Positions 40,554 through 64,000 of a DNA stretch of 64,000 nucleotides are shown in pieces. A program made the position numbers and the translations under genes. The DNA comes from Neophaeotheca triangularis (Eukaryota), in assembly GCA_054600435.1 (NCBI GenBank), contig BAAIJX010000004.1, positions 186,001 to 250,000 of the forward strand. The letters are read 5' to 3'. The first letter of the stretch is position 1. Every line of letters starts with the position of its first letter. The notes below the pieces were generated by a model, which was not told the DNA's origin, ran no database searches, and saw nothing but the letters and a program-made list of their open reading frames with translations.

Positions 40554-40825
40554 GGAGCGGCAACGGCTGGTCACATGATGGCGTTTAGTGAAGGTACAGG
40601 AGGTGAAGTGGTGGGTGTTATGTGTTTTTGAGCGTAGGCGTACTGGCGTACCTTACCCTCCGCTTCAAGAAAGTGATGCTTTGCTTGAGCTGTATGTGCG
40701 TGTCTCAGATCTTCACTTCACTTTCAAATACTTTAATTGCTAACATTTGCAAATTGCAGTAACGTCACCCACTACTATTCACCCACTACCTTCTCCCTGA
40801 CCAACATAGAAGCTTCACAACTGCT

Positions 40826-42145
40826 ATGGAGCACGCAAGTTGGACAGCATCCCTCCCATTCCGCAGTCCGACGAGGCGCCACGTTGGTGCAATCAATTTC
40901 GAGCCCCCAGCAACCACAGTTTCAGCAACCACAGTTCCAGCGGCACCACCACCACGGATCGTCAGTTTGCCGCCAGAGCAATCGACTGAGCACCGCAACA
41001 AGAACAGTGACACCTCACAAGTTGGTGCAAACGCCGCCGGCGACAATTTACCCACCCTAAGAACGCCCCCAAACCAGCAAAGTGTGGAATCAAGCACCAC
41101 CCTACTTCACCCACAAAGTCGAAGCTGCGTGATCTCGGCTAACGACCTCTCCAACCTTCAGCTCGCCTCGCCACTCATTATTCAGCGTGACGACGTCTTC
41201 TCTCCGATGCCGACCGAGGCTATGGACACCTCTAAACAAGCCGATACGCCAGGCACAGATTCTCCACCGCGCAGCATTACCCATGTCAAGGACATCGACT
41301 TCTCGCCTCGAGCCAGCAGCACTCCTGGTGAAGAGGCAAGGGGAAGCAGCATCAAACACATCAAAGACATCGACTTCTCTCCAACTACAAACTCGCCAGA
41401 CCCTAGCACTACAACACTTGTAAAGTTGTCACCAGACCAGCCCTACACCCCAACCCACCCGCTTAAGCGCCTTCAATCCCTCCAAAGCCGCTGCGGAGTC
41501 ACGCTCCCCAACACAACTAGTCCACCTCTGAGCAGCAATCTCCGCGTCCCCAAAATCCCCACCCACGCAGCATCCAGAACAGCAGAAAGTTCCGACTCCG
41601 ATTCCGATATCCTCCACATCAAAACTCCACCGAACCCCAACCCCAAGAACGGCAAACCCCGCGCTGTCACCCTACCATTCCTCACCGACCCCAGCACCCA
41701 CAACACCCCGTCGAACCTTGCCCTCGCACCCTGCTCACACGAATCCCGGGTCCGCATAACCCGCACGTTCAGCGCCTGGGACCTCGCCAGCCACCAAGGA
41801 CCTGGTTCGGGAAGAACGCAGTTCCACTACCGCACAGGCGCACGTGAGCGACTGCTGGGGATCTGCGTCAAAGCTCCGCGAAATAAAAGAGAGAAGTGCG
41901 CGAAATTGAAAGCGGCGCCTTCAACGGTTTTGTGTGAGAGGCATGAGGTTTATTTCGGTAGTGAGTACACGCGACCCCTTGGTGAGATGTTGAGGGAGGT
42001 TTTGAGGGCTGGAGTTGGGGGTGAGGGTGGTGGGCTTGAGGGGGTTGAGAGTCGTGAGGGGCTTGGGGGCGATGGTGGTGGACGCCTTGTTGGAGATATG
42101 GATGACGAGCGCAGGGCGTTGATGCGGAGTGGGATGCGTGGTTGA
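40826..42145 (+). CDS. Hypothetical Ser/Thr/Pro-rich protein with internal duplication
   Basis: 439-aa ORF; repeated I(T/K)H(V/I)KDIDFSP; small Cys/His-containing C-terminal region; no recognisable family. Confidence 0.55.
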   Translation: MEHASWTASLPFRSPTRRHVGAINFEPPATTVSATTVPAAPPPRIVSLPPEQSTEHRNKNSDTSQVGANAAGDNLPTLRTPPNQQSVESSTTLLHPQSRSCVISANDLSNLQLASPLIIQRDDVFSPMPTEAMDTSKQADTPGTDSPPRSITHVKDIDFSPRASSTPGEEARGSSIKHIKDIDFSPTTNSPDPSTTTLVKLSPDQPYTPTHPLKRLQSLQSRCGVTLPNTTSPPLSSNLRVPKIPTHAASRTAESSDSDSDILHIKTPPNPNPKNGKPRAVTLPFLTDPSTHNTPSNLALAPCSHESRVRITRTFSAWDLASHQGPGSGRTQFHYRTGARERLLGICVKAPRNKREKCAKLKAAPSTVLCERHEVYFGSEYTRPLGEMLREVLRAGVGGEGGGLEGVESREGLGGDGGGRLVGDMDDERRALMRSGMRG

Positions 42146-43999: not shown

Positions 44000-46900
44000 C
44001 TACTGGAAGATCATCTTCAATTCCTCACGCTTCCTTTCATTCTGCGCAAACTTCGACCGCCTCTCCATACTCATCGAGCCAATCTCCTTCTTCTTCTTCT
44101 GCAGCCTCAGCACTCCCTCCTCCACACTATCCTCCATGACATAACGCTTAATAACCACCGGCCGCTGCTGGCCAATGCGGTGCACGCGCTGGAAAGCTTG
44201 CTCCTCGGCACCGGGATTGTATTGAGGCTCGAGCATGTAAACTTTGTTCGCGGCTTCGAGGTTCAGACCCTGACCACCGGCTTTGATGGAGATGAGGAAG
44301 ATGCGCTTGCTGGGATCTTTGTTGAAACTAGCGACTTCCTCGCCGCGCTGTGTGGAGGACATCTTACCGTCGATGCGGCAGTACTGGATGCCTTCGAGCT
44401 TGAGCGCGTAGGCGACGAGATCGAGCATCTGCACCCAGCCCGAGAAGACGACCGAACGGATGGGAGCTTCGCCTTTCGGCAGCGCGGCAGACTCCTTGGC
44501 CGAGGCTTTGAGGTCTTTGATGAGCTGTTTGACTTTGCTGTGTGGACCGCTGTAGCTCTCGGGCGTCCATTTGATGTTCTTTTGTTTGAACTCCTCGGCA
44601 CGCTCGCGTTCGAGACGGGTACGCTTGAAACCTGAGGCGCACAGCTCCACCATACCGCAAAGACCGTAGGCGTTGCAGAATGGGCACTTGGCATAACCGT
44701 CCAGCGAGGCTTTGGTGGCCGCGGTGTAGTCTTTGGTGCAGTCGGGGCAAAGAAGGTCGACGCAGTTGGTGATAAAACCGACGGTAACGTCGCTGTCATC
44801 ATTGTCGTCGAGCTCCTCGGGCTCCTCGATGGTGCGGTTGCAAATTCTGCACCCGTTCTCCCCAGACTCCTCCATAGTAGCAAAGTGTTCGTAAGCAGCC
44901 CTCTCGCTGACGGTCTGCTGCCCGTCGGGCTGCTCATCTCCGAGATCAATGTCGACATCATCGTTGCCATCCTCCAAAGCCTGCATCTCCTTCTCCCCCA
45001 TCATCTCTCTACCATGATCGCATATCATGCGAAGCTGAAGAATGATCGTGAACATGTTCAAGAACTGCTTGCCGCCCACCTTCTGGCCATCCAAAATGGG
45101 ACGCAATTTGCTAGTCGTCTTGTCGAGTACCTTGCTGTAGAGTTGCCGCTCTTCGTCAGTGAAGGGGAGTCTGACGATTTCTTCGACGCAATCGGGCAAA
45201 GGTTGCTCCATCTTGTCCTTTGTACGTCGTAGCGTGATGGACTCGACCAGAAGCTGCAGGTTCTGGTAAGCCTTCTGCTCGCCAGCCTTGAGCTTGTTGT
45301 CGATGTAGGTTGTCCAGTTCCTCTGCTCATCGAATGGCTGAACACGAAGAAATCTTATCAAGGTGCCAAGATCTTCTAGCTTGTTCTGCGTAGGCGTACC
45401 CGTCACGGCCCAACGTCGCTGAGTAGAAAGTGCACAGCAGCTTTTGGCGAGAGCAGTTGTCGGATTACGGATCTCGTGAGCTTCATCCAGCACAACTCGG
45501 AACCACTCGACAGAGCCGAGTGTGTTGGATTCCTCACCCGAACGCCACTCTAACGAGACGAGGTTGTACGAAGTGATGACGACGTCAAACTTTCGCACCG
45601 AGTGAGGGTCCCTGTCTCGGCTGTTGCCGCGGTAGTCGAGGACTTTGAGTTTGCCACCGGTGTAGCGGTGAATCTGGTCTTTCCATACTTCGATGAGGGA
45701 GACTGGGCAGACTACCAGGGTTGCTCGGGTGGTGCACACTGTCTGCGCCATCATTGGAGAGGCTTTGCGGGTGCTGAATTTGACGGCATCGTCGAGAGAG
45801 TGGCACACTAGAGAGATGATACTCAAAGTCTTGCCCATGCCCATCTGATCGGCGAGGAGCCCACCGCGTGTTGCGGAGGGCTTGACGGGGATCTCCTGAG
45901 CGGTTATGGCGTTGATGTAGACATCCCCATGAGCCTTGTGGACGGGCTTCCACAGTGAGAAGTCAGAGAGACCATCAGCTCGCTTGAATGATTCGTGGCT
46001 TTGCTCGTGTTTAGTCATGTAGAAGAGTGCCTGCTTTTGGTGAGGAAAGAGCTTGCCGACTATCATGGGAGACGCATCAATCTCAGGCAGTGTCTCGTAC
46101 TGATCGAGGTTCTGGAAGATCGTATTCACATCGTGTTGCATCTGTTCTGCAGTGCGAGTGGTGTCTTGCGCTCGGGAAGTCGACGAAACAGAAGCAGAAG
46201 ACGGCATTGTAGCTTTGCGGGTGAACTGGGCGTCCCGTGGCCACTGCGGGTTGAGATACTCCATCGGCCCGAGGCTATAGCGTGGATCGATCAACACGAG
46301 CCCGAGCTCTTTCAGCCGTTTCCCGATGTTGGGTGCTCGGTCGCGCGGAGCGTCTAGCACTAGATGGAGTACCATCCTCTCACTCGTCGCCTGGCCGACG
46401 GCTTGGCCTGGCTTTCTCGGCCGGGCTGGAAGGAAAGTTTTGTAGTTGAATTGCATGATGTGCTGTCCTAGGAGCATCGGCAAGAAGGCCTGAACGTGGT
46501 GAAGCATGATTCTCGCAAATCTTTCCTTCATGCGATCAAGGACGTAGACGGTCTTGCCACCCGGGCTTTTCTTGTCGTGGAAGAGAGTGACCTGGGTGGG
46601 TTTCCAGTAGGCTTCCTTGCTTTTGTTGTCGGACTGCGCGGAGACGGAGGGGAGCTTGTGCGCGTTGGTCTGAAGCTCTACCATGCCCAGCACCACACGG
46701 GAGCTGCCTTGATTGGCCTTATTGTGGGTAATGGCAGCGTCGTCGAGGGCTACCGATCTGTTGTTGTCTCCAGTCAGGTCAACGACATCTGCAGCCTTGC
46801 TTTTCTGCTTCTTGACTTCCTGACTCAGTATGCCGCTGTTAGCAGCGCCACTGAACTTGGATTTTGGCTTCTGTTGCTCTTCAGCACCATCGACGTCGTC

Positions 46901-47773
46901 AATATTACGCTTCTTAATGGGGGCATCACTGCGAGCAGTGAGACCGTTCATGGTCTCGATCATACTACCCATTCCGGAAGATTGGGCCTCTGTGCCTTGT
47001 TGTTCGTCTTGAACGGGTGATGAAGTCGAAGGCTTTGAGGCGCCCTTTGGGTTGAGTAGTTTACTGGCGTCGAATGTAGGCTTGTGGGATGGAGTGCCGT
47101 GCATGTTGCTGTCCTTTTGGCCCTCGGCCGTGGGAGTGTCAGACATTGTACCGTCTGCTCGCTGTGACGAAGGTGTTGTTTTGCGTGTCTGCTTCGGACC
47201 TAGTTCTGTCAGTCTAAGAGCGAGAAAGGTATACACTAGCGCATACCCACGGACCGCCTTGCAGGCACTGAAGCAGCGGATCCAACGGTGGCTAATGTCA
47301 ATGATGGATTCGCATCAGTGAACGGGACATGTGAGCCGGACGAACAGCTGCTGGCGTAATAACCCCGCAAGACCGCTGTTTCTGGGGCGTGTTTGGCCCT
47401 CTTTGGCGAGTGATCAGGAGACAGTGCTAGCGGTAGTTGCGGTAGTAAAGCCTAGATGAACAGTACAGCCGTGCTTGATAGCCAAGTCCTGATGCTTTGA
47501 GCTTGAAAGCAAGATCGAAGGATTAGAGGAACGTAGTGGCCGTGGCCAGTATTAAAAGAAGCCGGGTAGCACTCGGAAGGTTGTCTCAAGCATGCCACCA
47601 GAAAACGTTGATGGGTAGAGGCCGAAAATCAGGAGAAAAGAGCGGGAGCGGATCAAGCTGGTGAGACACGCTCAAGACTTACCATAGTTGGGCGTCGGCT
47701 TCCTTTTCCCACCGGAAGCCTCCTTCTTCTGCTTCGCATATGCTCGAGGATCGAGCAGCATGGCTGGATTCAT
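44000..47773 (-). CDS. SNF2-family ATPase, RAD5/RAD16/HLTF-like, with RING-type insert
   Basis: GGLLADQMGMGKT, LDEAHEIRN, TGTPTQN, RING-like Cys cluster, AGGQGLNL, QRVHRIGQ. Proposed exon 1 47683-47773 (MNPAMLLDPRAYAKQ...) spliced via intron 47200-47682, phase 1. Confidence 0.88.
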
Positions 47774-48399
47774 TGTGTCGCGAAAAGCGTTGCGCGGCCA
47801 AAAGGCTACAGCGGGACAATGAATCACTCAAAACACACCCTGAGGCTCTCTTCCTTCACTTATTGGTTTACTCAATTGCAAGGTGTAATAGTGGCCTGCG
47901 GACTGTAAGTTCCGGTGGCGAAGACTAAACGACCGTCATCAAACGCCCAGAATACGCCGTGAATCCACAAACCGCCTAACGAAGGCTGATATATGCCGAT
48001 ACGAGCGGCAGCTGGCGTGAGAATCGAAGTGAAACAGACGGGATGCTGAGTAAAGTACCTGGTATTCTTCAGATAGACAAAGGGTGACGTTCAGGAGGGA
48101 GTGCCCTAGTGTCTCCCAAAAGGGCTTAGCTTGAGTTTTGGCCTCAGGCTCACAATCTTGCCAAGAAAGCGCGAGGGCAGCTTCGCGAGTCGCGCTGTCT
48201 GTTCGGACTTCACGACTTCAACATTGCAATGCGCCCATACCAATTCCATAGTACAATTACTTTGCGCCAACACGACTAACTGACTTGTCGCAAAGTATCG
48301 CTTCGACTCAACATCAAATACAACGCGCAGACCGTGCAATCCACCACAGCTTGCGCAAATCCCCGAATCCTACCGACCTGAAACATCGAACGCGCCAAT

Positions 48400-50548
48400 A
48401 TGGAGAGCGGATTCGCCAATGAGGATGCGCAAGCACCTACAAATGTCTCAGACGACCTCATAAATGCCGAAGCCGAAGCGCAGGAAGAGCAGCGAAAACA
48501 GGGGGAAGAGGAGCAGGGCGAAGCTGGGGACACGACAATGGGAGAAGATGCGCCGGTGGAGGATGGAACTGGTCAACAACAGGACATCAAAGCAGACACA
48601 GATAACGCTGCAGCACCTGCGTCAGACAACCCATTAGATGCTCCGGAGGGACCCCGACCAGAAAAGGCGGAGGAGGGGGAAGATGAAGAGATGCTGGATA
48701 CTGGTGGAGAGGCTCAGGAAACTAAGGAACCTACACCAGCTCCCAACCCTGATGTGGCTGCCGCGCCTGCACCAGAAGTCTCCAAGGCGGTTGTAGAGCA
48801 GTCTGCGCGTTCCCACCTGATCGAGCAAAAACACGCCATCATCCTCCCCTCCTACAGCGCTTGGTTTGACATGCACCACATCCACAACCTCGAAAAGAAA
48901 GCTCTGCCTGAGTACTTCAACAGCCGCAATCGCAGCAAAACACCCGCCGTCTACAAAGACTACCGCGACTTCATGGTGAACGCCTACAGACTGAATCCTG
49001 CGGAATACCTCACCGTTACGGCGTGCAGGAGAAACTTGGCTGGTGATGTTTGCGCGATCATGAGGGTGCATGCCTTCCTCGAGCAATGGGGTCTCATCAA
49101 CTACCAGGTATGATACACTTTCAATTCAGGCGGCAATTGCAAGCTAACTTTACGATCAGATTGACCCCGACACCCGCCCTTCCAACATTGGTCCTCCGTT
49201 CACTGGCCATTTCAGAATCACAGCAGACACTCCCCGTGGACTGCAACCCCATCAACCTGCGCCGAATAGCACCATCACAGCCGGTAAACAGCACACTGGC
49301 ACCGACCGCATAGCCTCCGCCGGCAAGGCCGATCTCAATCTCGAAGTACGACGGAACATCTACGACGACAAGGGCAAGGATATCACTCCAGCGGCGGAAG
49401 CGAATGGCGAAGCCACCAAATCCCTCGAGGAGAGTCTGAAGCAGCCTGGGAAGCAATACTTCTGTTACTCGTGCGGCAAAGACTGCACTCGTGTCCGTTA
49501 CCACAACTCGAAAAACCCAGCACCGAGCGCCGCTACCCCGAAACCGAGCAAAGACCAGCGATACGATTTGTGCCCGCTGTGCTTCCAAGAAGGCCGCTTT
49601 CCCGCTTCGACAAGCTCAGGCGACTACACCAAGCTCGAGAACGAAAATTACCGCAGCGCAGGCGACAAAGAGCATCCCTGGTCTGACTCTGAGCTTCTGC
49701 TACTCCTTGAAGGTTTGGAAATGTTCGACGATAACTGGGAATCCGTCGCAGACCACGTAGGTTCCCGCACAAGAGAAGAGTGCGTTCTCAAGTTCTTGCA
49801 ACTCGAAATCGAAGACAAATACCTCGAAGACTCCCCCTCAGCCAACGGCGCCACCACCAATGACACTTCTTACCTCTCCAACGGCCGCCTCCCCTTCAGC
49901 CAGTTCGACAATCCCGTCATGAGCGTCATGGGCTTCCTCGCCGGCCTCGCCGACCCCGCCACCACCGCCGCAGCAGCCGGAAGAAGCGTAGCAGAAATGC
50001 GCAAGACCCTCAAATCCCGTATCGAGGGCGAAGCCACCCCCGGCGCTGAGAAAGAAAAAGAAAAGGAAACCAAGCAAGAGCGCCCCGATGAGGCCATGCA
50101 GGATGTAGACGACACCACCTCGCTAGCCAACCGCTCTCCCCCGCCGCCTTCCACTTCCCACGACCTCCCCACCACCGCTCTCTCGCTCACCGCCGCCCGC
50201 TCCGCTGCCCTAGCTTCCCACACCGAGCGTCAGCTTTCTGCCCAAGTCTCCGCGGCCGTGAACATGCAACTTCAGAAGCTCGAGCTGAAAATGCAGCAGT
50301 TCGGGGAGATGGAAGCGCTGCTGCAGGCCGAAAGGAGGGAAGTCGAGAGGAGTCGGAAGGCTTTGTTCTTGGAGCGGTTGGAGTTTAGGAAGAGGGTAAG
50401 GGAGGTGGAGGGAAGGTTGAGTGGCATGAGTCTTGGTGCTGGTGGGGAGGGGGCTGAGAGGGAGAGGGCGAGCATGGTTTCCGCTGAGGCCAAGGGTGAG
50501 GTTGCGCCTGTTGGTGAGAGTGAAGGCGCCGTTAGGCATGAGATATGA
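48400..50548 (+). CDS. SWI/SNF-RSC chromatin remodelling subunit (Swi3/Rsc8/Ssr family; SWIRM, ZZ, SANT), 2 exons
   Basis: [39 protein letters not shown], intron 49108-49159, [27 protein letters not shown]-terminal coiled coil. Confidence 0.94.
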
Positions 50549-51443
50549 GTTTTGTTCGTGGGAACGCATGGGCGTATGGAGGTTTTTGGGTGGGTAATTG
50601 CTGCAGAGGTTCGCAACGATGTTGTTCAAGGGAGGTAAACTAGTTTTCCTGCGCTATAGCTGCTAGAAATGTAACATCATTCAGGCTGTCGGCCCCCGCT
50701 TTTTGTTTGACCTTAGGTGAGTAGAAAATCTTGGGCAATCTCACTCCGCGGCGCTTTCCAGGTAGGCACGACGGCTTGAAAGCCACCCGAGTTCTCGCTC
50801 TCATGTCGTGGAGGAGCGGCGAGCTATTCAAAGCGAGTACGGTTGGAACCAAGCATGCCAGCTTGAAGTGCATACTGATGTTTTGATAGTGCACGATACA
50901 GCCACACAGCAGAGCGAATACTATAAAGCGAGGCTCAAGCTTCGTGTACTCTGTGGCCGATCCCAGCCCAGCATGTATGCGCTTAGAGAAATACTTTTCC
51001 GAAGCAGTGAGTCGTGTGCAGTATCTCTAGCGCCATTGCTCTGGAAGCAAAAGAACTAGACTAGAAGAAAACAAGAACGTAAAACCGGATGTCTTCTACG
51101 GCTCGGAAACGCTTAACTCCAATGCTCTTTACCAAGATGATCCCTCCCGCGAATAACCAGCATAGAATTCGAACCCGGTCCATCAGAGTGCCGCGAACGT
51201 GGGTTGCCAACCGTTCGAAGAGACTGATGGTGTGCCCCTGGCCGCGTCAAACGATCGGCTCATGTCAAAAGCGGGTGCAGGCAAAGCCTCAGAGCGAGGC
51301 TTTTTCAGGGGAAATACCGCCGCAAAGCTCGTGATTGGTTAGATAGGCGCACAGCACGCTGCGCAACGCAGGCGCTCAAGCCGTTGTGAAAGATGCACGT
51401 AGTAGATCTATCTACCAAGCTAAGTCACTCGACTGTACAGATC

Positions 51444-53018
51444 TTATCGTTCTTTGACTCTTGAGTCTTGAGCGTTCTGCCTTTGTAGTCGAGTCTCTGT
51501 AACTGTGTCTTTCACCGCGTGGATAACGAAAAAAGCACCACCATGAAAAAACGCTGGGGTAGGTACCTTATCCCTGAAAGCAGTATTCCCGGTACTCAAC
51601 GCCGATCTTCCCGCATTCTCCCTCGAGCAGACTCCCATGAATAAAGCAAACCTGGGCATCGCTGAATGCAGTATTCTTAGTGCCCAGGGCCAATGACTTT
51701 GCACTGTCCATTTGCCAGGAAAAAGGAAATTGGAACTCTCTTCGAATGCCGCGTACCCAGTGCCCGACGCCAATCTCTCCGCATTTTCATCTTTCACACT
51801 CCAATCTGTTTTCGTCGTAGACTCGTAGTTGTCTGGCGCCACACCTTTGGCCATGTCGACCAAGTAGCAGTCACGTAGCGTCTCGCGTGCCTTTTTGGCT
51901 TGAGCCTGCGATCCGTACTCTTCGCGAAGGAGCCATCCGCCGGAGGTCATGTCGATGGGGAACTCTTTGTTCTCGGTCGCAATCTTGGCTCTGGCCTCGA
52001 CGTTGGGGATGGAGAAGTTGGCGACGTTGTAGTAGAGGTTGTAACCCACTGCGAACTGCTTTTGCAGCCTGTTCTCAGTGCTCCTCAAGCGCTTTGCATC
52101 CGTGAGCCCACCGCGCACAAAAAGCATGATTTTGGCCATGGTCTTGCGACGCCAGCCTCCCAGAAGAGCGCGCACGATGGATGCGGGCCTCAAAAAGTGT
52201 TGTGGCATCCAGATCAGGTTCTCGAGGATGGTGTATGGAACGCCGGGGGGAGACTGCACGAGGGAGGACACGGTAGTCTCCATAGAGCCACCGTAAACCT
52301 TAGCCTTGTTTTTTCCAGCTCTCACGGCCGCTTTCGCAGCTGCTACGGCTTGTTTCTCCGCTACAGTGATGGACATGCCGTGCTTCCACATCGAGAGCCT
52401 CTTCGCGCCATCTTCCTCATCCAGGGGGGTTACAGAAGTTGACGGGTCACCGGGTTGGTCGCTCGTGCCGCTGGGGAACGGGGAAGAAGCAGCGGGAGCG
52501 TTAGCTGTTGGGCGCGTGGAGGTGGAGCTGGGGTGGGCAGATATGGTCGGTGGGGTTGCTTCAACAGTAGTTGCGATGTTTCCCGAAATGGAGGATGAGA
52601 AGTCCGAGAGTCCCATGTTGAGCTCTTGAAAGGTAGCGTGCGGCGTTCTGAGAGCCTTCTCAACCTCATGATGGATGTCGAGACCGTTGATCATGTTGGA
52701 GTTGTACAGACAAATGTCATCCGGAATAGGGGCTTCGCAGCTTCCATGAGGGTTCTCCACATGCGCAGGATCTTGTAGCCCAAAGCTTGGCGGCAATAGG
52801 CCGTTTGAGAAGACTGCCTCAATTCTGATCGCGTGAAGAAGATCATCGTCCACAGGAGCTGTGGGGACGGGGAGTAGAACGTTGTAGAATGCATTTTCGG
52901 GGTCGTTCAGCGAAAGGTGATATGCCTAGAATTGTTTGTTCAGTATCATGAACGTGTGTCTTGCATGGTATCCTTAGCTCACCTCGTCGGGTGCGTCTAC
53001 CATGCTAACGTCTCCCAT
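51444..53018 (-). CDS. Uncharacterised family member A (paralog of 60319 and 63065 genes), C-terminus apparently replaced
   Basis: Exon 1 52983-53018 (MGDVSMVDAPDE), intron 52926-52982. Shares MW...EKQA...YGG, GGWRR, TENRLQKQF, WLLREEY, RDCYLVDMAKGV with the 60319 protein; similarity stops at ~51824. Confidence 0.7.
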
Positions 53019-56000
53019 AGTTGCGACTAAGTGGCCGCCTTGACGAATGCACTTGCCCAGAGGAGCAGGTAATGTTGTGCAATTGTTGAGAGGTACCTTA
53101 TTTAGTGTGAGACGCGGTGCGGGTATGTACCACGTTGTGTTGGTGGATTGAAAGGTCTGGTCGGCGAGGTCTTGGTAGTTTTGTAAAGGTGAAGTTGAAT
53201 TCGAGGGGCTGGGCTTCCTAAGGTCTTCGCTTCAAAAACAGTCCACGTGACAAACGCGACATTCCGCCGATAGCTTCGTAGCAAAAGTAGCGGTGAGCAA
53301 CAGAACTGCCCAACAGTCATCTTTGCAAGAACGTCCACCGCAACACAGTGTACTCGAGCTTTCAACGCTTCCCCCGCCGTACACACGTTATAACAGCGCG
53401 GGAGCTGTGCTGTGAGCCTGCAAGATGTCGAGGGCCTTCGGCTCAAAGCTTTGAGGACTATATTATAGCGGATGACAACGTATGTATACCGGACCAGCAT
53501 GGAAGGGACCAACAGTCAATGGTCTAGCGGTACGCAAGGTTGACTAGCAAGCTCGCTGCTAGGTTGCCAGGACAGAAGAGCCGGGTTCACGTTCTAGATA
53601 TGTTCATAGCCAGAGCGCGATAGCACTCAGATGAATTGAATTAGTTTGTCATAATAGTCAAAGGGCTGGACAAGGCGCAAGACAACCGCTCAGCAGGAAA
53701 TGCAAAGACCCAGGACAAACCGGCTTTGTCGCGGATAACCCAAGAAGAAACATAAGCATGACGGACTCAATACTGAGCGGTTTGCTGTCGACGATTCGCT
53801 GATAATCACGCAATCACGCCGTTGCACCAGCTGCACTTTGGGGTGTTGTAGTGTCGCCGGCCAGAACCACTGGATTGATACCGGGGCATAAAGAAGTCTG
53901 CTTAGTCTTTCAGCCGAATACTCGACCAAATCCGTTACTCATGATATTGTCCCCGTTGCGAGAGTTGATAATCATGTGCCGTTGCTCTGCGCAAGGGGCC
54001 GCTCACGGATGGCGTCTAAGGCACAGCAGAATGCTCGACGCTCTACTCTAGTCGAGAATTAAGTGGAAATCAATTTGCAGCGGAGGAAAAGGTGTGTGCC
54101 GCGCTGTGTGCCGCGCTCGGCAAATGTCTAGCGCAATTGATTCATCTCTATACAAATTTCCTATACGAGGGCAATGCAGTAGTCTTCCAGGCCACCTACT
54201 AATGCTCGACGCATTTGGAACGAGGTGTTGTTAAACCAAGCTTTTCCGGAAGCGGAAGTACATCACGGCATGTGGAGACGGCTTTCGACGGGGCATTGCT
54301 TCTACATTCCGATTCGTTGTGTGGAGACGGCTTTCAACCTCACCCCAATTCGGCTCTCCTATCATCATCTAGATTTTCTTTCTCCTCCTTCACAAAAAGA
54401 TAGCTGAGCGATCACAATTCGCCTCTTGGTAGCGACAGTGTGTTTTCGGGTATGCATGCTGGACAGACGGGCGCGTTACACTCAAAACTTAACCTGTCTT
54501 AAACCACGATCACCTCGAACGCTCAAGCGACATTACTCTATATTCCTGGATGCAAATGTGTGGCAGTCTGCAGGACCGTACGCTGACTTGGCTCTATTCA
54601 ACTTAATGTGCATTGCGTCGCCTGCTAGCACTGACATCTTGTGAGGCTTTAGGGACTAAGACTGTTCTTGTGAACTTTTGCAACAGCAAAATACAGTAAC
54701 GTTGTGCGTGCTATAGCGCCGACAATGAAGTCGCACGCCTTTCAAAGCTCTATCGCGTTTTATTGATCCCAACGGTCCCGCTTTTGCCTTTATATCCAAT
54801 ACTTCAATCTGTAAACCGACCGAGATCTTTGCCCCCTACGGCAAAAGAGGGGACTGTCTTGGGAAGCCTCACACTGGGCAAGCGAAGGTAGAAGATTCCT
54901 GCTTCCATGCCGACTCAGAGCTGCCACGGTCCCATAAAGACGAATCGTTCCAGACCCAACGAGTACCGGTCAAGCAGTACGACCCAGTGGTTGGCGCGAA
55001 AGCCCAATACGGTCGCCTGACTGCACCACGACTGTGGCGTGCCACTTGGTCTGTCGAGTCTATCGAACGCCCTTGCTTCTCAGTGGAGTGGTCTGTGTCG
55101 TGCGCTGAGAGTGTTTCTTTGGCTTTGCATGGTAGGTCACTCGGCTGCGTCGCGCCGTGAGCGGCCATCCAGGTCTGGCAGAGGCTTCGTCTGCAGGTGT
55201 CTGTACTGTTCTTTGAAGCGCCAACATGCCGGATAAAGTGTAAGACTTGGTCGACAACTGCAGTAGGGCTTGCGGTTTCGTTGATTCTTCGGATGTGCTG
55301 CATACTGAGTGTACTTCGAACTCTGGGCTGGTATCTCCATACACGGGTGTCACTTTGGCATTTGAGAAGTCCCTTTGAGCAGAGGTTCTGACATAATGAC
55401 CTGTAATACGGAACCTGTTGAATCTTTGTTGTGGCTGCGAATGGTCGAGTAATCATCTTTGTTCTTTGTGAGCTTTGTTGAAAAACCGCTTCCGTTTCAT
55501 CTACATTCCTCGAAATCAGACAAAGACTTTGTACCGATAGACTAATCTGCATCAAGTATTCGTTTACTTGGTAAAATTAGATCATTAGGAACCCATAGAT
55601 GGGTTATTGTTCCTCAACTCTATTAGATGTCCCAGTCTCACCTTTGCTAAAGTATGATCACATATCCTCAACTGCTGCTCCTAAAAGCCGTTGCATGTAC
55701 CTAAACCCAATTGTATACCTAGGAGAATGATCGCGAATCTCATACAGCGTATGCCCATAATGTGTATGCGTCGACCGTAAATGTGATGACAAGACGGTCT
55801 TCTCGCCAAACAGATCAGATTTACCACACACAGAGACACTCAGCGTGCTGCATCTCTGGAGGCTATTAAAATAAAAGGTAAAGATTCACGTCAGAAAAGA
55901 TTGTGCGATGGGCTTTGAAGGCGTTATTGGCCGCTTTGCTCCAAGTTTCAGCAGGGTCCTAGAGGCGTGTCCAAGTAATGTGTCTCGGGCGCGTTATTGC

Positions 56001-56198
56001 AATACTCTTGGGATTTTAAGCAGATGACAATGTTTGAGACAGTATGGCGCGTGTACTTCTCCTTCGGGTATACAAGACTACGAGCACAGTGCGCCTAGCC
56101 AATCGATAGTAGCTCTTTGTCTCTTCTCTCTGGCGCCGTTCTATAGAAGATCCTCTTTTGCATCTCACGGAACTTTAGCCACCCCTGGCGCCGTTCAA

Positions 56199-56460
56199 AT
56201 GTCTGCCACTACGACGACTGTTGCAGTTGTTACTAGCGCGTCACCACACGTTGCGACTATTGGTGCTGCTACTCAAGGGGAAACGGCTCAGTCTCTGCCA
56301 TCCCCCCTGCCCTTTTTCCTACGCCCGCAGCCCGACTATCGCTTGGATAAGCTGGCATCGTCAACAGAATCAACAACACCTCTCTCGTCATAGGCAAGAA
56401 CCAGACCGGGGGAACGGCACTCTAGGGCTTTCGCTTGTCGGCCAAGTTCCCGCGGAGGCG
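56199..56460 (+). pseudogene. Fragmentary pseudogene of the same family (member B, closest to the 57623 copy)
   Basis: Reads SLG*AGIVNRINNTSLVIGKNQTGGTAL/GLSLVGQVPAE versus ALGQGGWFTARVNNSASATSANQTGRGALYGQSIRGQVPGE in the 57623 ORF; stop at 56348-56350 plus a 1-nt deletion. Confidence 0.6.
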
Positions 56461-56575
56461 CTCTAGAACACCCTCGTCGTCGCCAGGCGTCGATGCAGAA
56501 AGGATTATCTGTGTGGGTTTTGAGGGTTGTGTGGAGAAATGCATTCGGTGCCAAACGGCGTACTTGCAAATTGTC

Positions 56576-56631
56576 GGCCATTAAGGGCTTTGGGCCATTA
56601 AGGGCTTTGGGCCATTATGGGCTTTGGGCCA
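56576..56631. repeat. 17-bp tandem repeat (GGCCATTAAGGGCTTTG) x about 3.3
   Basis: Read directly; third unit has one substitution. Confidence 0.9.
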
Positions 56632-57622
56632 CTGCGAGCTTTGGTAGATCTTCACACAAACGAATTGTCCTGTGGGTCTCTGGGACTTACTTGCCCCTAT
56701 ATGTATTCCGTGGTATTGTGATCGTACTTCCTACCCATTCAAAGCACATGCTATCGCAGATTTCAATCACTCCACGGGGTGATAGATCGTCCTCCCGCAG
56801 CGTGCCATTGACAATGATCGCCGTCTATCGATCGCTTCGATATCAACGTTCAAAGCGCGTGCACCCGAAGAACAAGGGCTATCTAAGCTCTAGCAAGCAG
56901 CGTAAGCAAGCAGTCGAGCGTCCAAAATCGCATATGTATATCTATATCCTGCCTCTCCCGTGAAGAGTCACAGCAAGGTGTTTCCTGTGCAACCATCATA
57001 CCCAAGGCACATTTTCTGTGTATGCCTCAGGGTCTTGCGGGCAGCCCTTGCTCGGTATATCCACTTAACAATCTTGCTATAATACTTTCAAGACCCCATA
57101 AAGCCCTCGAGTGCTATCAAAGTCGGGACTGTGTGCCTGGTTGGCCTAGGGAACGTTTGGTCACATGGAACAGCGGAGCTGCATAAACCCGTTTGTTCTT
57201 CGGCTAAAGCTTCAAAACTTACACCACAACATCCTCGAAACGTCAACGCATAACCGACCTTACACCAGGAATCTTCCTGATAGCTTTGCTTGGTAGGGAT
57301 ATTTGCAATAGCACCATTCTCCGAGGACCTTTGCGTGCTTGTTAGGACAGCCAACCGATCTCGAAGGCTTCTGACCGTCTCCTGACTGAAGGTGAGACAT
57401 TCCTCGACACCCCGTGGCTAACTTTGACGCTGACAATCTGCAGAGGGAAATCTTCACCAACTTCAACAACAGCAGGACATCATGTCGTCTTTTGAAAGAG
57501 ATCCACTGGAAGACGAAGCGTACCAGCTCTTTGGGGTAAGACATAGCGCGTCTCCGTGTCATGTTGCGCGCTGACTGTATTATCGTATAAAGGATCTTGA
57601 ATGGTGCAATCGCTCATTCGAT

Positions 57623-59137
57623 GTGGTCGATGCCACCATTCCGGGCGAGACCAAGGACTTGGAGACAGAAGCGTTCCTCTCAGCTGCCAAATATACGGGG
57701 GGAAAGCGTATGTACTCTTGTCACGCAGAAAGACCCATTAAAGAGTCGACTGACCCCGTTACAGAAACCCTTCCTTTCGGGTCTGCAGCCACGCAATCCA
57801 ACACAACTCCAGACACCCTCCACGTCCGACCACAGGAGACTATGCCACCTTCGTATTTGTTGTTAGGCGCGAACGGCCTGATCGACGAGGAACTATGGGA
57901 CAATCTTCGCAACCTCGATGACGAAGAGCCCGGCGTTCAGGGTACATCGTCGCAAGGGCTCAAAAGGAAGCGAAAAGATGATGAGTTCTTGGACGCCAGA
58001 CACCTGAAGGGCGCGGTGCAAGACTACGTGGAAGGTGATGCGGGCGCACAGTACACATTGATCGACACCAGCCAGAGCAGCAACAATAACTATTTCCCAA
58101 GCACGTTGTCCAGTTCAAACACCTCCAACATCAGGTGTCCTGATTTGAGACTCGCAACCACAACTTCAAGTGCAACCAGCACGTCCGCAATGAGCCATAA
58201 CGCCCCGCATCACGCCTCAACAACTGCCACAAACCGTGATTCGCACTCTACCGCACTGGCCGCCCCTACAAGCACCACGAATCAGTCAGCGCACCACCCT
58301 GCTGTTCCTACGCCCGTTTATACTGCAGGCCATCAAGCAGCATTCGCTCAAATGACCACGGGTCTTTGGGTACTTGTTCCGCCTTCAGCCCCCCGACGTG
58401 CTCTTGGTCAAGGGGGTTGGTTTACGGCTAGGGTGAACAACTCAGCTAGTGCAACTAGCGCGAATCAAACTGGTAGAGGAGCCCTCTATGGACAGTCCAT
58501 TCGTGGCCAGGTTCCAGGAGAGGTTTTCATTCCCCCTACCTGGACCATCAGTATGATGGAGCTGTGTCGCTTCCTGAAGCACAAACTTCTCTGCCCAGAG
58601 GCCTCAGAGCGCGCAGCGCGCAACGGATGGAAGACAATGGACATCGCTATGGCACAGGAGCTCGGGTTCGGCAATTATACCAAGGCGAATGTACTCAAGA
58701 CTTCTCAACCGTCAACGTACTCAGCAACAATTTGCAAAGGCTGCCAACCTTTTGGGCCGCATCACCGCGGGCTCTGCGTTCAACCTTAAGGCGCTTACTA
58801 CTCTGGGCCCACAGAATGACTTGACATCCTCCTCGTGGCGCCACCGTAAGAACGTCCTCCTTCCACGAGGCACGCCGCAAATCCCCCTGCAGCACATGAA
58901 GCTGTCAGACATCTACGCGAGTGTTCCACCAGCAGCTTGGCCAACGGGCACTGATCGTCTCCTGCTGACCCATACGAGTACGCCCAAAGCCAGCCACATC
59001 TAGACCTCGACACCTCCCACCTAGACTGGATCGTCCAGGTTCGCGGCTTTACGATACCACAGCTCCCTCCAAGCGGGAAGAACCGAGATGAGGACGACTT
59101 GGAGCAGTTCCGCAACAGCGCGCCCAAACCGACTTAA
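57623..59137 (+). pseudogene. Uncharacterised family member C with two frameshifts
   Basis: IPPTWTISMMELCRFLKH...RNGWKTMDIA, shift at ~58700 into NRQRTQQQF...WPTGTDRLLLT, shift at ~58972 into YEYAQSQPHLDLDT...KPT* (stop 59135-59137). Confidence 0.65.
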
Positions 59138-60318
59138 GGCTCCACGTTGCATGCGTCCGAACGTATCGGAGCCCTCTGAGGGGCGACTCTCAGGAATGAC
59201 TCGCTCTCTGATCTGGTTACTGCAGAGATTTTGCTAGCTCAAGGAATAAGATTATGACCTAGTCAGTGATTACGGTTTGGGGTCATGATCTGAAGCGATA
59301 TTCTTGCAATTTAAGATCTAGAGGCCAGTCGCCGAGAAAGGTGCTTCTTTTTCTCGCAGCTTGATACTCCAGGGTGGCGACGAAGGCGGTCTAGGCTTAT
59401 CATTCTTGTGGTAACATCGCTCCGTTTTCTGTTGATCCGTTTTCTGTTGCTTTTAGCGGTTAGGCTGTGGCCTCAGTGCGCCTTTGGGGGCTATTGATCC
59501 TTACTTGACGAGTCGACATCAGACCTGCTCTGTTGCAGCAATGAAACTGCTTTCTCATCCTTATACATAGCGTTAGTGGACTTTTCCAGAATCTTCGTTT
59601 GTCCCTCCAATAGCAAGTGTTTCGTCCTACACCCTATACATAGTATCCCAATGACAAGGAGCACAAAAGCTTAAGCAATCACACTTTCTGCTTTGAAATG
59701 GGCAGCCTATACATTGAACAATCTTTTGATTCTATATTTTTCGTGCGCGGCCTATGCAACGTATATAACACTCGTGCTATCGCCACTTCAAAAGCCCTCA
59801 CATCCTTATGTCTTGATAATAGCTCTACCTGACCAGTATACTCAAAGATCGTTCTCTATTGTGATCTATCTCAAGAACGCCTAGGTCCGAATCTACCCTC
59901 GATCTTTTTGGCGCAGGGTAAGCGTGACAGAGCTGCAGAGCTGCGAAGTTTTGGCCCGTCACGTGTGAAAGTGGAGCTGCATGACCCCTTTTTCCGCGCG
60001 TTGGTTGCGAATCCATACCACCGTCATCAAACCTAGCTCTCCCAACCAGGCCAACAACCTCAAGGCCGTGTTCAACAACCTCTCGTTATCTTCTAGTACC
60101 ATCCCTGAGCACTACTGTCAACGAAGACCTACGTTCTGTGGAGTCAGGTCAGGCTAGTCCGCACCCCTCGACGCGCTCGAGGAATCGAGAGCTAGGCACT
60201 TTCAAAGTGAAACCTCGCTTTCCATAACACAACCTCCACCTCCCATCTTTTCATTTGAAAACAAAGACATCGCTCTCAACGGCTACGCAACCAAGCGGCA
60301 GTTGGAACCTCCAAGGTA

Positions 60319-61971
60319 ATGACGAAGTCGAGTGTTTCTTCCTTGTCACCCCCTGACGTCCTGAATTCTAGTACAAGGATACTACTAACGTCCGCGGACG
60401 AACACGACGACGCGGCGTTCTTCGGCGACATTCAAGCGATGGACTGGGAGGGAGAGCAAGGTTCCTTCTTCGAAGAATCTGGCAGGCGCATGGAGGATAG
60501 TCTCGCTGTCGAGCAACGGAAGAAGAAGCAGAACGGAAACATTGGACACCAGCACGGGGAGGAGTATCTCATAGCCCAGCCCATGATGGAGGCCGCCTCC
60601 CCTGGAATCGATCACCCTGTTCAACGCAGCTTTTCCGGCTCGACCTCATATAACACAGCGCAACGGCCTGCAATTGCTTCATGGGTTGCGGCGCTCGAGG
60701 CTGTGCAGGCTTTGACTGCGCCCGCTACAACCCCAGCGCACCGACCTACAATTGCTTCGTGGGTTGCAGCGCTGGAAGCCGTACAAGCCATGACTCGGCC
60801 CGTTACCATTACAGCACCGGCACGACTGCCTACAACTGCTTCTTGGGTTTCAGCCCTCGAAGCTGTGCAGGCGATGACCCGACCCGCTGGCACCTCGAAT
60901 ATAACAGACTCCGACACACCCGCTTCGCTCCCTCTTGACTCGGATTCCGTCGTTGTGGACTCAGGCATTCCCCAGGCGATGAAAGACATGATGTCGGTGC
61001 TCCTCGTCGCCCCCACCAACAGCTCGAATCCCAACACTGTTCCTCAATCGACCCGACATTCGATCGAAACTTCGTCGTTTTGCTCAGAAGCTCCAACAGT
61101 CACGCCCGTGATGGTCACAAAATCTGCCCCTGAAAACGATGGTAGCCTTCCGATGTGGTCGAAAGCCGAGCCGCTTTCTGCTTCAGAGAAGCAGGCCGCC
61201 AGGGCTCTTCAAGTAGCTATCGCAAGCGGCGCCGACATTCGAAAAGCTTACGGTGCAGCAATGGCCGATGTCGTCTCCGCATTTGTCAAGATACCCGCCG
61301 GCGTGCACCTCACGGCCGAAGAGATCCTGATACATCTTCCAAACCACCTCCAGATCCCAGCCGTCGTAACCCGTCTACTCAATGGTGGCTGGCGTCGCAG
61401 TTCAATGGGCAAGAAGATTCTCTCCGCTCGCGGACTTCTCGTGGACGATACGGCTTTGCTCAACACCGAAAGCCGTCTCCAATCCCAATTCGAGACTGGG
61501 TGGAACACCTACTACGGTGTTTCCAACTACAGCAGTGCGAACGTCGAAGCTTTTAACGCTGCCATCCTGCCCACCGACACCACACCTGACGAATGGCACC
61601 TTCGCGAGGAGTATTCACTGGACTCCGCTAGAGTCGCAAAAGCGCATTGCAGGTTCCGCGATTGCTACCTCGTGGATCTCGCCGAGGGTGTCGCTCTCGC
61701 AGACTTTGCCCAGGGCGACCAGGCAGGCGTTCTTACGGAGTGCATCAAGGAGGCCTTGTTTTTCGACTCTGGGCTCAAGCTCTCCGATGTCCCTGCCATG
61801 ATCAGAGATTTGGGGCTCACCATGCCAGCGTACGACGCAAGCACAGTCAACCCGGATAGGGCGCCGGTAGCGGATGCTGTGTCAATCGCTCGCCCACCCA
61901 AGGCCCCTAAGCCAGCTCGTCTAGCCGGTCCGGGCAGCCTCAAGACGGGCAAGCACCGGGTCAAGAAATAG
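60319..61971 (+). CDS. Uncharacterised family member D (apparently intact), with a 3x internal peptide repeat
   Basis: 550-aa ORF; acidic/disordered N-half, full C-terminal domain ending GDQAGVLTECI...; start codon uncertain. Confidence 0.75.
   Translation: MTKSSVSSLSPPDVLNSSTRILLTSADEHDDAAFFGDIQAMDWEGEQGSFFEESGRRMEDSLAVEQRKKKQNGNIGHQHGEEYLIAQPMMEAASPGIDHPVQRSFSGSTSYNTAQRPAIASWVAALEAVQALTAPATTPAHRPTIASWVAALEAVQAMTRPVTITAPARLPTTASWVSALEAVQAMTRPAGTSNITDSDTPASLPLDSDSVVVDSGIPQAMKDMMSVLLVAPTNSSNPNTVPQSTRHSIETSSFCSEAPTVTPVMVTKSAPENDGSLPMWSKAEPLSASEKQAARALQVAIASGADIRKAYGAAMADVVSAFVKIPAGVHLTAEEILIHLPNHLQIPAVVTRLLNGGWRRSSMGKKILSARGLLVDDTALLNTESRLQSQFETGWNTYYGVSNYSSANVEAFNAAILPTDTTPDEWHLREEYSLDSARVAKAHCRFRDCYLVDLAEGVALADFAQGDQAGVLTECIKEALFFDSGLKLSDVPAMIRDLGLTMPAYDASTVNPDRAPVADAVSIARPPKAPKPARLAGPGSLKTGKHRVKK
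60664..60885 (+). repeat. Coding tandem repeat, 3 units (78 and 84 nt spacing), PxxASWVxALEAVQAxT
   Basis: Visible in both DNA and translation; units differ mostly at third codon positions. Confidence 0.9.
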
Positions 61972-63064
61972 AGTTGCGGAGCTGTACTAGTCGATTTCAA
62001 GTCCTAGTAACAGCGCGGATCGAGACAAAGAAAGTGTCAAAGGATTAGACTGGGCCTCCAAAGAGACGGACAAAGGCTTTCAACCTGGCTTCGCGGTCTG
62101 GCCGACGCCTAGCTTTGTCGAAGTCGGAAGGGCTTTGGTTCTCGGGAGGCGGACGATTGAATGATAGTGAACAATGCCCACGCACGCTGCCGCTTTTCAG
62201 ATCTTGGTATCCACATAAATTCCACTCCTAGTGCATTTGCAAGCCTCCATAGAGCTAGCCCCCTCGTAGGGCAGTTCCATTAGCACGTTGCGTAGCAAAC
62301 ACGTACTTACAACGTGCGCTTTCGCGTTTGTACTCTGTAGACCGTCCCTCTATGCAAAGATCGTATTGGCATGCGGGTGGTCTTTGCATGCAATCACCCC
62401 TTTTAGCCATTTGATTGATCCCGGGCCTTTAGAAAGGAATGAGTGGGCTTGCAAAAGCAAACGGGACGTTGCTTTGGACCGCGTGAGCGTATATAGTAGA
62501 GAACCGCCATCTTTTGAGCAAATACGTCCAGCACTGTAGATCCATCGTTTCGTGTTCGTCGATTACGCCCGCTCGTGATATATCATTCAATGGCAAATGG
62601 GAATTCGTGTCTATCCCAGTATACCGGGCGAATGACGCCCGTTAATTATAGCCCGTTTACCTCCATAATGTGACTTCCATCCGATAGATCTAGGGGTTGA
62701 GGCAATACCGAGCCTGCGTACTCAGGAGAACCATTGTCACGTGACTGAGCGAAGCTTCATGGATCTTTCACTCATGCAGCTCCCTCGAGCCCGTTTCACC
62801 AAGTCCGCAACACCATCTTTGAACATCGACGCCCTTCTTTTGGAACAATTCTTGCAACAATAACATCTTGGAGCGCTCTTTTCTGGAATAACAAGCCGGA
62901 TATACTTCGTCCATCGTACTTCCTCCTGCAAGTTCAACGCGTCCAGACACGCGAAGCTGCTAAGGTGAGCTCAACCGTAAGACCACACCCCTTGGACATT
63001 TCTGACTTCTTCAGAGCGGTAGTGAACTTCAGCCGCCACAGCACCTACAAGAAGAGTCGGAAGC

Positions 63065-64000
63065 ATGGCGTACCCCAACGACAACTCTTCCCAGGTAGGC
63101 ACCCCAGACAGTCACAATACCGCACCCGTGCGACCCGCGTTGACCTTTTGTTAGATTACTAGCGCGGTTCCTCGAAAGAGGAGCGCCTCTTCTGTGCCGA
63201 CGTCTTCGAGGTCCAGAAAAACCATAAAGTTGAACGTCGACAACAACGATCGTGAGTATCCAATACCTCTGAATCGTACGACTCCACGCAGGTGCTGACT
63301 TCACATCAACAGCTACTGGCCGGCAAGGCGGTCTCGGAGTTCAAGCAGCCACAGAGGAGCTCAGCATCGCCTCCACTTCGTTTTCTTCTTTGGCCGCTAT
63401 GCAAAACAGCTTCGTCCCCATATACGGACCAAGTCACCAGCTTCCACTCGGTCATGACTTCGAGCATGCCAGCGGTTATTCTCCAATTGATCAGGGCGCT
63501 TTCTTGAAAGACCAAGAGCTTGATAACTTCTTCGGCGCAATGAACCACAACTTTCAAGAACTTCAAGAGCAGAGCCACGCGCATGTGGGTGACGAGACCG
63601 AAGGCTCTTCGTACTTCCCCCAACACTCCCCCGCAATTGGTGCTGGCTTCGAATTCGGACTCCTCGAAAACCTTCCTGCCGGCGCAGGGATTCCCGATAC
63701 GGGAAGGGTCAGCGTGATGGGTCCACCAGCTCCTCCGGCGCCCGCTGCCAGGGTTGCAGTCTTCTTGCGCAAGACGCGTCAAAAGACCCAGCCAGCAGCA
63801 TCCGCCAGATCGACTGCGACTCAACCCGCGACGGTCAACCCAGTCGGAGTCGCGACCCCATCTCCGGCTAACAACGGCCATCTCGAACTTTGGGACATCA
63901 ACAAGCCCACCACGCGCACGGAGAAGCAAGCCGCAAAAGCTCGTGCAGGAGCCGTTGCCAATGGTAAAAACCCCAACGATGCCTACGGCGGGGTTACACA
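63065..64000 (+). CDS. Uncharacterised family member E, runs off the window (absent from the ORF track)
   Basis: Exons 63065-63094, 63155-63251, 63313->64000 splice in frame; ends NNGHLELWDINKPTTRTEKQAAKARAGAVANGKNPNDAYGG, aligning with NDGSLPMWSKAEPLSASEKQAARALQVAIASGADIRKAYGA of member D. Confidence 0.78.

What the first reader, a model, noticed from the sequence alone, without database searches (positions are those of the whole stretch)
51444..64000. Birth-and-death array of at least five paralogs of an unrecognised protein family
Seen: members at 51444-53018 (-), 56199-56460, 57623-59137, 60319-61971 and 63065->64000 (+). Each has an unrelated disordered N-half. A, C and D share a domain of pattern P-x3-T-x2-E-x5-H...R-x3-GW...NR-x-Q-x-QF...W...L-x-D, C and D add G-x-D-x3-LT, and A, D and E share W...EKQA...G...YG. 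States range from intact to chimeric, frameshifted and fragmentary, with long spacers and no other recognisable genes. I cannot assign the domain. Inference: high divergence and turnover in a local array is typical of conflict systems (allorecognition, meiotic drive, genome defence) or lineage-specific regulators. This is the best candidate for an undescribed system here.
Basis: partly seen in the sequence, partly recalled or inferred. Interest (0 to 1): 0.8.

Follow-up and report, generated by a model that had tools for sequence, protein, structure and literature searches.

The report
Fungal array of undescribed nuclear proteins
A salt-tolerant black fungus keeps five old copies and one relic of an unnamed, probably gene-regulating protein side by side, and a second sample of the same fungus has a different set of copies broken or swapped, so the family is real and changing, but its job is untested.

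Summary
The array is real and runs past the window: A (3'-truncated), relic B, C (two frameshifts), D, E and a further intact copy F lie beside RSC8/SWI3. All carry a ~230-aa C-terminal all-helical domain (AlphaFold pLDDT 93) with no Pfam family, found as hypothetical proteins across Dothideomycetes; it is not a local orphan. The copies are old: synonymous sites are near saturation, dN 0.45-0.69. A/D/E/F form one clade; C belongs to another subfamily (one-clade tree rejected, p-AU 0.001), yet C, D, E and F share a promoter element 322-360 bp upstream of the start codon. Turnover is ongoing: a second sample lacks both frameshifts of C, has a frameshift in D's basic tail, a diverged haplotype over B and a strongly diverged A-like gene. 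Nothing points to a transposon or RIP. Best reading (0.45): co-regulated, partly redundant nuclear DNA/chromatin-binding regulators with a helix-turn-helix-like core; DNA binding is inferred, not shown. A self/non-self or drive locus stays open (0.22).

The parts
51444..53018 (-). Copy A, clade I; one intron (about 52926-52982); domain ends at HMM position 178 of 238, C-terminal helices lost
   Evidence: (P0005)
53244..53251 (-). GTCACGTG box 232 bp upstream of A; the second half of the shared element is not recognisable
   Evidence: A's upstream region does not beat shuffles against any other copy
56312..56463 (+). Relic B: stop- and frameshift-bearing remnant of a C-type gene (start of the domain)
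   Evidence: tblastn E 0.005 in the spacer; weak
57160..57194 (+). Shared promoter element of C (GTCACATG-N6-CGGAGCTGCAT), 322 bp upstream of ATG 57482
57482..59137 (+). Copy C, second (Mycosphaerellales-type) subfamily; intron 57536-57592; broken here by a 7-nt insertion near 58705 and a 4-nt deletion near 58972
59958..59992 (+). Shared promoter element of D, 360 bp upstream of the ATG
60319..61971 (+). Copy D, intact 550 aa; three 26-28-aa repeats in the N-half (60656-60895); domain residues 275-521; basic tail
62736..62770 (+). Shared promoter element of E, 328 bp upstream of the ATG
63065..64000 (+). Copy E, intact 501 aa, introns 63095-63154 and 63252-63312; continues beyond the window to extended coordinate 64691. 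A further intact copy F (522 aa) lies wholly outside the window at L005 2862-4545 (extended 65862-67545), with the promoter element at extended 65516-65551
   Evidence: (P0004, P0003)
48382..50548 (+). Flanking RSC8/SWI3-type gene (SANT/Myb, SWIRM-associated); landmark, not a family member

Best explanation
The array is the local gene cluster of an undescribed Dothideomycete family of nuclear regulators. Each protein has a fast-evolving low-complexity N-half, basic nuclear-import-like patches and a conserved ~230-aa all-helical C-terminal domain whose middle (helix, GW turn, helix, long helix with R/Q/N residues) is arranged like a helix-turn-helix and most likely binds DNA or chromatin. Old whole-gene tandem duplications copied the promoter too, so the copies are switched on together through one E-box-containing element. 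Because they are partly redundant, or needed only in a rarely used stage, different copies are being lost in different lineages of the species. SHOWN: homology, fold confidence, two subfamilies, purifying selection, shared upstream element, polymorphic lesions. INFERRED: nuclear location, DNA binding, co-regulation, redundancy.
Confidence: 0.45

Rival explanations
1. The locus is a conflict locus (self/non-self recognition or meiotic drive) kept diverse by balancing selection, with different haplotypes carrying different, very old family members that act on each other.
For: In X2 the RSC8-side contig is 98.4% identical (55 differences in 3334) yet runs on into unlike sequence at 50679; a contig of about full depth matches A over only 50 nt (51910-51959), and its loose ends, read by hand in A's frame, are open and match A at 6 of 19 residues; one X2 contig replaces 55764-56397 (over B) with 630 other letters; 55220-55581 differs by 36 of 362. 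Highly divergent adjacent-gene haplotypes mark het-B of Podospora (PMC10890737, abstract seen) and narrow balanced footprints mark Aspergillus het genes (PMC11138114, abstract seen). Clusters recur: three neighbouring accessions on one Sporormia contig and a two-subfamily pair in L026.
Against: No HET, NACHT/NB-ARC, kinase, patatin or other Pfam domain in the array's members. Paralog domains are under purifying selection. D differs by only 2.8% between the samples (47 in 1681). Reciprocal loss of old tandem paralogs explains X2 equally: its 50-nt match to A (80% or more) is hardly closer than the A-D match there (77% over 44 nt). Only one other divergent sample was seen, and the position of X2's A-like gene is not known.
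Confidence: 0.22
2. The domain is an enzyme or a protein-binding scaffold, not a DNA-binding module; the array's history is as described.
For: The best-conserved polar residues are scattered (E61 98%, R78 98%, T199 92%, D239 90%, R245 70% of 60 rows) and could line a pocket; net charge is not uniformly basic.
Against: Long disordered acidic N-halves with basic patches are typical of regulators (own knowledge).
Confidence: 0.15
3. A sexual- or stage-specific gene family that is simply decaying in mostly clonal black fungi; the array is neutral erosion of once-needed genes.
For: Broken copies recur: A, B, C here; an in-frame TAA in L026 and an in-frame TAG in L029/L030; P0006 and P0039 leave the family pattern before the domain's end.
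Against: D, E and F are intact with saturated synonymous sites and kept promoters; C's two lesions are absent in X2; most complete metagenome copies are open. No stage-specific data.
Confidence: 0.13
4. Remnants of a transposon or other mobile element.
For: Long gene-free spacers and broken copies; variable neighbourhoods among fungi.
Against: All family hits of four protein queries at E below 0.05 lie in this one array; DNA of 50600-60300 matched only itself in the genome; no long terminal or inverted repeats; no RIP-like dinucleotide shift; spliceosomal introns shared by E and F; no transposase family in Pfam.
Confidence: 0.04

Closest known systems
Uncharacterised Dothideomycete proteins (e.g. 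EMC96353.1 Baudoinia, GIZ36771.1 Cercospora kikuchii, KAK4554094.1 Recurvomyces, KAF2742316.1/317.1/327.1 Sporormia)
   Same: Same domain over its whole length, 24-32% identity to D for these, same C-terminal position behind a variable N-half; clustered in Sporormia.
   Different: All are annotated hypothetical/uncharacterized; the A/D/E/F clade has no sampled member outside this genome except possibly the fragment P0006 (54%; too short for the tree).
Tri-helical helix-turn-helix domains (LuxR/NarL type; Myb/SANT)
   Different: No sequence-level match; the core is embedded in a 230-aa fold; scores are too low to assign homology.
Fungal het/vic loci (Podospora het-B; Aspergillus fumigatus het genes)
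   Same: Adjacent genes, strongly divergent haplotypes in a low-divergence background (abstracts of PMC10890737 and PMC11138114).
   Different: No HET or NLR-type domain found; balancing selection and cell death untested.
Spore-killer arrays (wtf, Spok; recalled, no call)
   Same: Multi-copy, mix of intact and broken copies, strain-variable.
   Different: Copies here are old, confined to one locus, lack transmembrane or kinase/nuclease domains in Pfam, and show no mobile-element context.

Membership tests
Any Pfam or NCBIfam family | HMM hit to the domain | tested here: not met
   0 families for 55 of 55 members in Pfam at E 0.01 and 28 of 28 in NCBIfam
HTH (LuxR/NarL, Myb/SANT) | Sequence profile match | tested here: not met
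   hhalign probability 4.8% against a Myb/HTH protein
HTH (LuxR/NarL, Myb/SANT) | Three-helix bundle with a recognition helix, by structure | tested here: inconclusive
HTH (LuxR/NarL, Myb/SANT) | Binds DNA | not testable with these tools
   needs an assay
het/vic allorecognition loci | HET, NLR, gasdermin-like, patatin or kinase effector domain | tested here: not met
   no Pfam hit on array members; not all het genes have such domains (own knowledge)
het/vic allorecognition loci | Highly divergent haplotypes against a similar background | tested here: inconclusive
   seen at A and B in one other sample; allele versus paralog not resolved
het/vic allorecognition loci | Balanced frequencies, trans-species polymorphism, cell death on fusion | not testable with these tools
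   two divergent samples only; no phenotype
Meiotic drivers (wtf, Spok) | Dispersed young copies with mobile-element context | tested here: not met
   one locus, saturated dS; genome search is a lower bound
Meiotic drivers (wtf, Spok) | Segregation distortion, poison-antidote action | not testable with these tools
   needs crosses or expression tests
Transposon proteins | Transposase/RT/integrase domain, terminal repeats, dispersed copies | tested here: not met
Mating-type locus genes (MATORF-like) | Linkage to MAT idiomorph, APN2, SLA2, COX13 | tested here: inconclusive
   none recognised by eye among ORFs of 200 aa or more in the window or among ORFs in the next 18 kb; alpha-box search was blank with a blank control
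Birth-and-death multigene cluster | Old paralogs under purifying selection beside pseudogenes, with lineage-specific loss | tested here: met

The most novel reading that the evidence does not exclude
A class-wide fungal domain with its own fold acts as a nuclear self/non-self or drive system with no HET or NLR part: haplotypes of this cluster carry different combinations of very old paralogs, switched on together by one promoter element, and incompatible combinations are resolved by breaking one partner (C here, D's tail in the other sample).
Probability: 0.17. Interest if true: 0.85.

Novelty: new variant of a known kind. Interest (0 to 1): 0.55.

Why it matters
Dothideomycetes include many crop pathogens and extremotolerant black fungi, and a conserved, confidently folded 230-aa domain spread over at least three orders still has no family name. 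If it is a DNA-binding regulator it adds a transcription-factor family that annotation misses. This locus is a ready test bed: natural loss-of-function variants in two samples, a defined promoter element and two subfamilies side by side. If haplotypes prove incompatible it would be a new type of allorecognition or drive gene.

Full report
Observation. The region 51.4-64 kb follows an RSC8/SWI3-type gene in a 25.4-Mb fungal assembly, contig C4. Copy F, which lies on the same contig just beyond the window, is labelled Neophaeotheca triangularis by its source. D matches A at 45% over 196 aa and two further places at 44-45%: E, which is complete and ends at extended coordinate 64691, and F at 65862-67545. 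A family HMM that did not contain C finds C's three reading frames at consecutive positions 15-105, 105-189 and 192-238. A stops at position 178 of 238. B is a weak relic of a C-type gene (E 0.005). So there are five genes and one relic: three intact (D, E, F), one truncated (A), one frameshifted (C). Four protein queries found family hits only in this array; that search is a lower bound.

History. In a 60-row tree (P0006 left out as too short, P0033 counted as two domains) A, D, E and F form one clade (0.999) and C falls among Mycosphaerellales-type proteins. On 24 of the 60 rows IQ-TREE gives A/D/E/F 100/99 and rejects one clade with C (p-AU 0.0014). C is 19-24% identical to the others, which are 31-47% identical among themselves. 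Synonymous sites are near saturation (pS 0.67-0.80) with dN 0.45-0.69: old copies under purifying selection. E and F share intron layout and an N-terminal motif, so duplication was at DNA level. Clustering recurs: three accessions within 11 numbers on one 139-kb Sporormia contig and two subfamilies side by side in 1 of 18 metagenome loci, many of them short. Equal contig lengths suggest that a family member shares a contig with RSC8 in Baudoinia, Recurvomyces, C. kikuchii and a close relative with a 90% identical RSC8; this is inference from lengths, in C. kikuchii the two are far apart, and three other pairs were uninformative.

Shared promoter. An element GTCAC(G/A)TG-N6-(C/T)G(G/A)AGCT-x-CAT lies 322, 360, 328 and 345 bp upstream of the start codons of C, D, E and F (C's distance uses ATG 57482). 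C-D, C-F and D-F upstream alignments at this element beat all 200 shuffles; E-F did so through a second element; D-E was reached by 8 of 200; the pairs with A or B, and C-E, did not stand out. A keeps only the GTCACGTG box. A relaxed pattern has 10 matches in the genome, 4 of them here; the reversed control also has 10, and the pattern was made from these sites. That C shares the element despite its distant protein means either long conservation or capture of a promoter within the array. CACGTG is the E-box of bHLH factors such as Cbf1 (recalled).

Turnover within the species. Run X1, perhaps the source, is identical over 46001-64000, so C's lesions are not peculiar to this assembly. X2, a second sample with the same organism label, differs by 1.6% on the RSC8 side, 2.2% in C's 5' part and 2.8% in D. 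It lacks the 7-nt insertion at 58705 and has the 4 missing bases at 58972-58974, so both of C's known breaks are absent; only 12 of 32 indels and 40 of 692 substitutions were shown, so other lesions are possible. It has one extra base at 61896, which would end D within a few codons and remove its basic tail. Its RSC8-side contig runs into unlike sequence at 50679. One contig matches A over 50 nt only; its loose ends, translated by hand in A's frame, are open and match A at 2 of 10 and 4 of 9 residues, and do not match D, E or F: a family member unlike any in this isolate, closest to A, position unknown. X2 has two half-depth contigs over 55.2-56.5 kb, one of which replaces 632 bases over B with 630 others.

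Mechanism. The anatomy (acidic Pro/Ser/Thr-rich N-halves, basic patches and tails, a conserved helical domain whose first half is basic with an R/Q/N-rich long helix) fits a nuclear DNA- or chromatin-binding regulator best. Shared promoters and reciprocal damage to different copies fit co-regulated, partly redundant genes (0.45). Against: no profile match and only sub-threshold structural rows for any DNA-binding family, and D's domain is net acidic. The divergent haplotypes keep a recognition or drive locus open (0.22), as such haplotypes mark het-B of Podospora and het genes of Aspergillus (PMC10890737, PMC11138114; abstracts and outlines seen), but no death or receptor domain is present and loss of old paralogs explains the data equally. 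An enzyme or scaffold (0.15) and plain decay of stage-specific genes (0.13) remain. A mobile element is unlikely.

Novelty. Birth-and-death clusters are a known kind, and two unchecked notes of this scan describe similar orphan arrays in other fungi. What is new is the family itself: class-wide, confidently folded, unnamed in the libraries searched and not found in the papers searched (listings only, no supplements), here with natural variants that make it testable. Interest 0.55.

Noticed in passing
L029 3402-3404 (same gene in L030): A single in-frame TAG sits exactly at the family's conserved Trp (78% of 60 rows). The 51% identical P0031 lacks about 18 residues ending at that Trp, as if a gene caller skipped a stop; P0006 leaves the family pattern three residues before it. 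Could be a stop restored by A-to-I editing, a new short intron, or plain G-to-A mutation. Passages of PMC11087585 place the editing function of Ame1 in Sordariomycetes, which argues against editing here; passages of PMC10041177 added nothing.
   Followed up: partly
L026 5840-9819: Tandem pair of two different subfamilies; the first has an in-frame TAA, the second a TCACGTG box about 240 bp before its ORF. A TatD-like gene (recognised by eye) flanks the family gene in both L026 and L029/L030.
   Followed up: partly
window 62471-62511 and L005 2237-2277: Second shared upstream element of E and F (83% over 41 nt, with a TATA-like core), about 600 bp before the start codons.
   Followed up: partly
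window 60656-60895: Three 26-28-aa repeats of an amphipathic-looking motif in D's N-half, 73-76% alike in DNA; possible activation or binding motifs.
   Followed up: no
window 56576-56643: 17-bp minisatellite, about four copies, just behind relic B.
   Followed up: no
window 55220-56505 in run X2: Two contigs at half depth suggest that X2 is heterozygous, hybrid or mixed at this locus.
   Followed up: no
run X5, window 48934-49818: Same organism label but RSC8 is only about 85% identical in the pieces laid: probably another species or a deep lineage.
   Followed up: no
C-terminal tails of D, E, F: Shared basic G-(K/R)-(H/Y) ending preceded by a Lys, lost in A and, by frameshift, in X2's D.
   Followed up: partly
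L036 11256-12233: A tandem Myb/HTH-repeat gene lies next to a family member; no detectable homology to the family.
   Followed up: yes
window 40763-42145 and L005 6548-7462: Two further ORFs (460 and 304 aa) with no Pfam match.
   Followed up: no
L006 790-10000: About 9 kb with only two ORFs of 130 aa or more, neither looking like a gene, after the mitochondrial-carrier-like gene downstream of the array.
   Followed up: no
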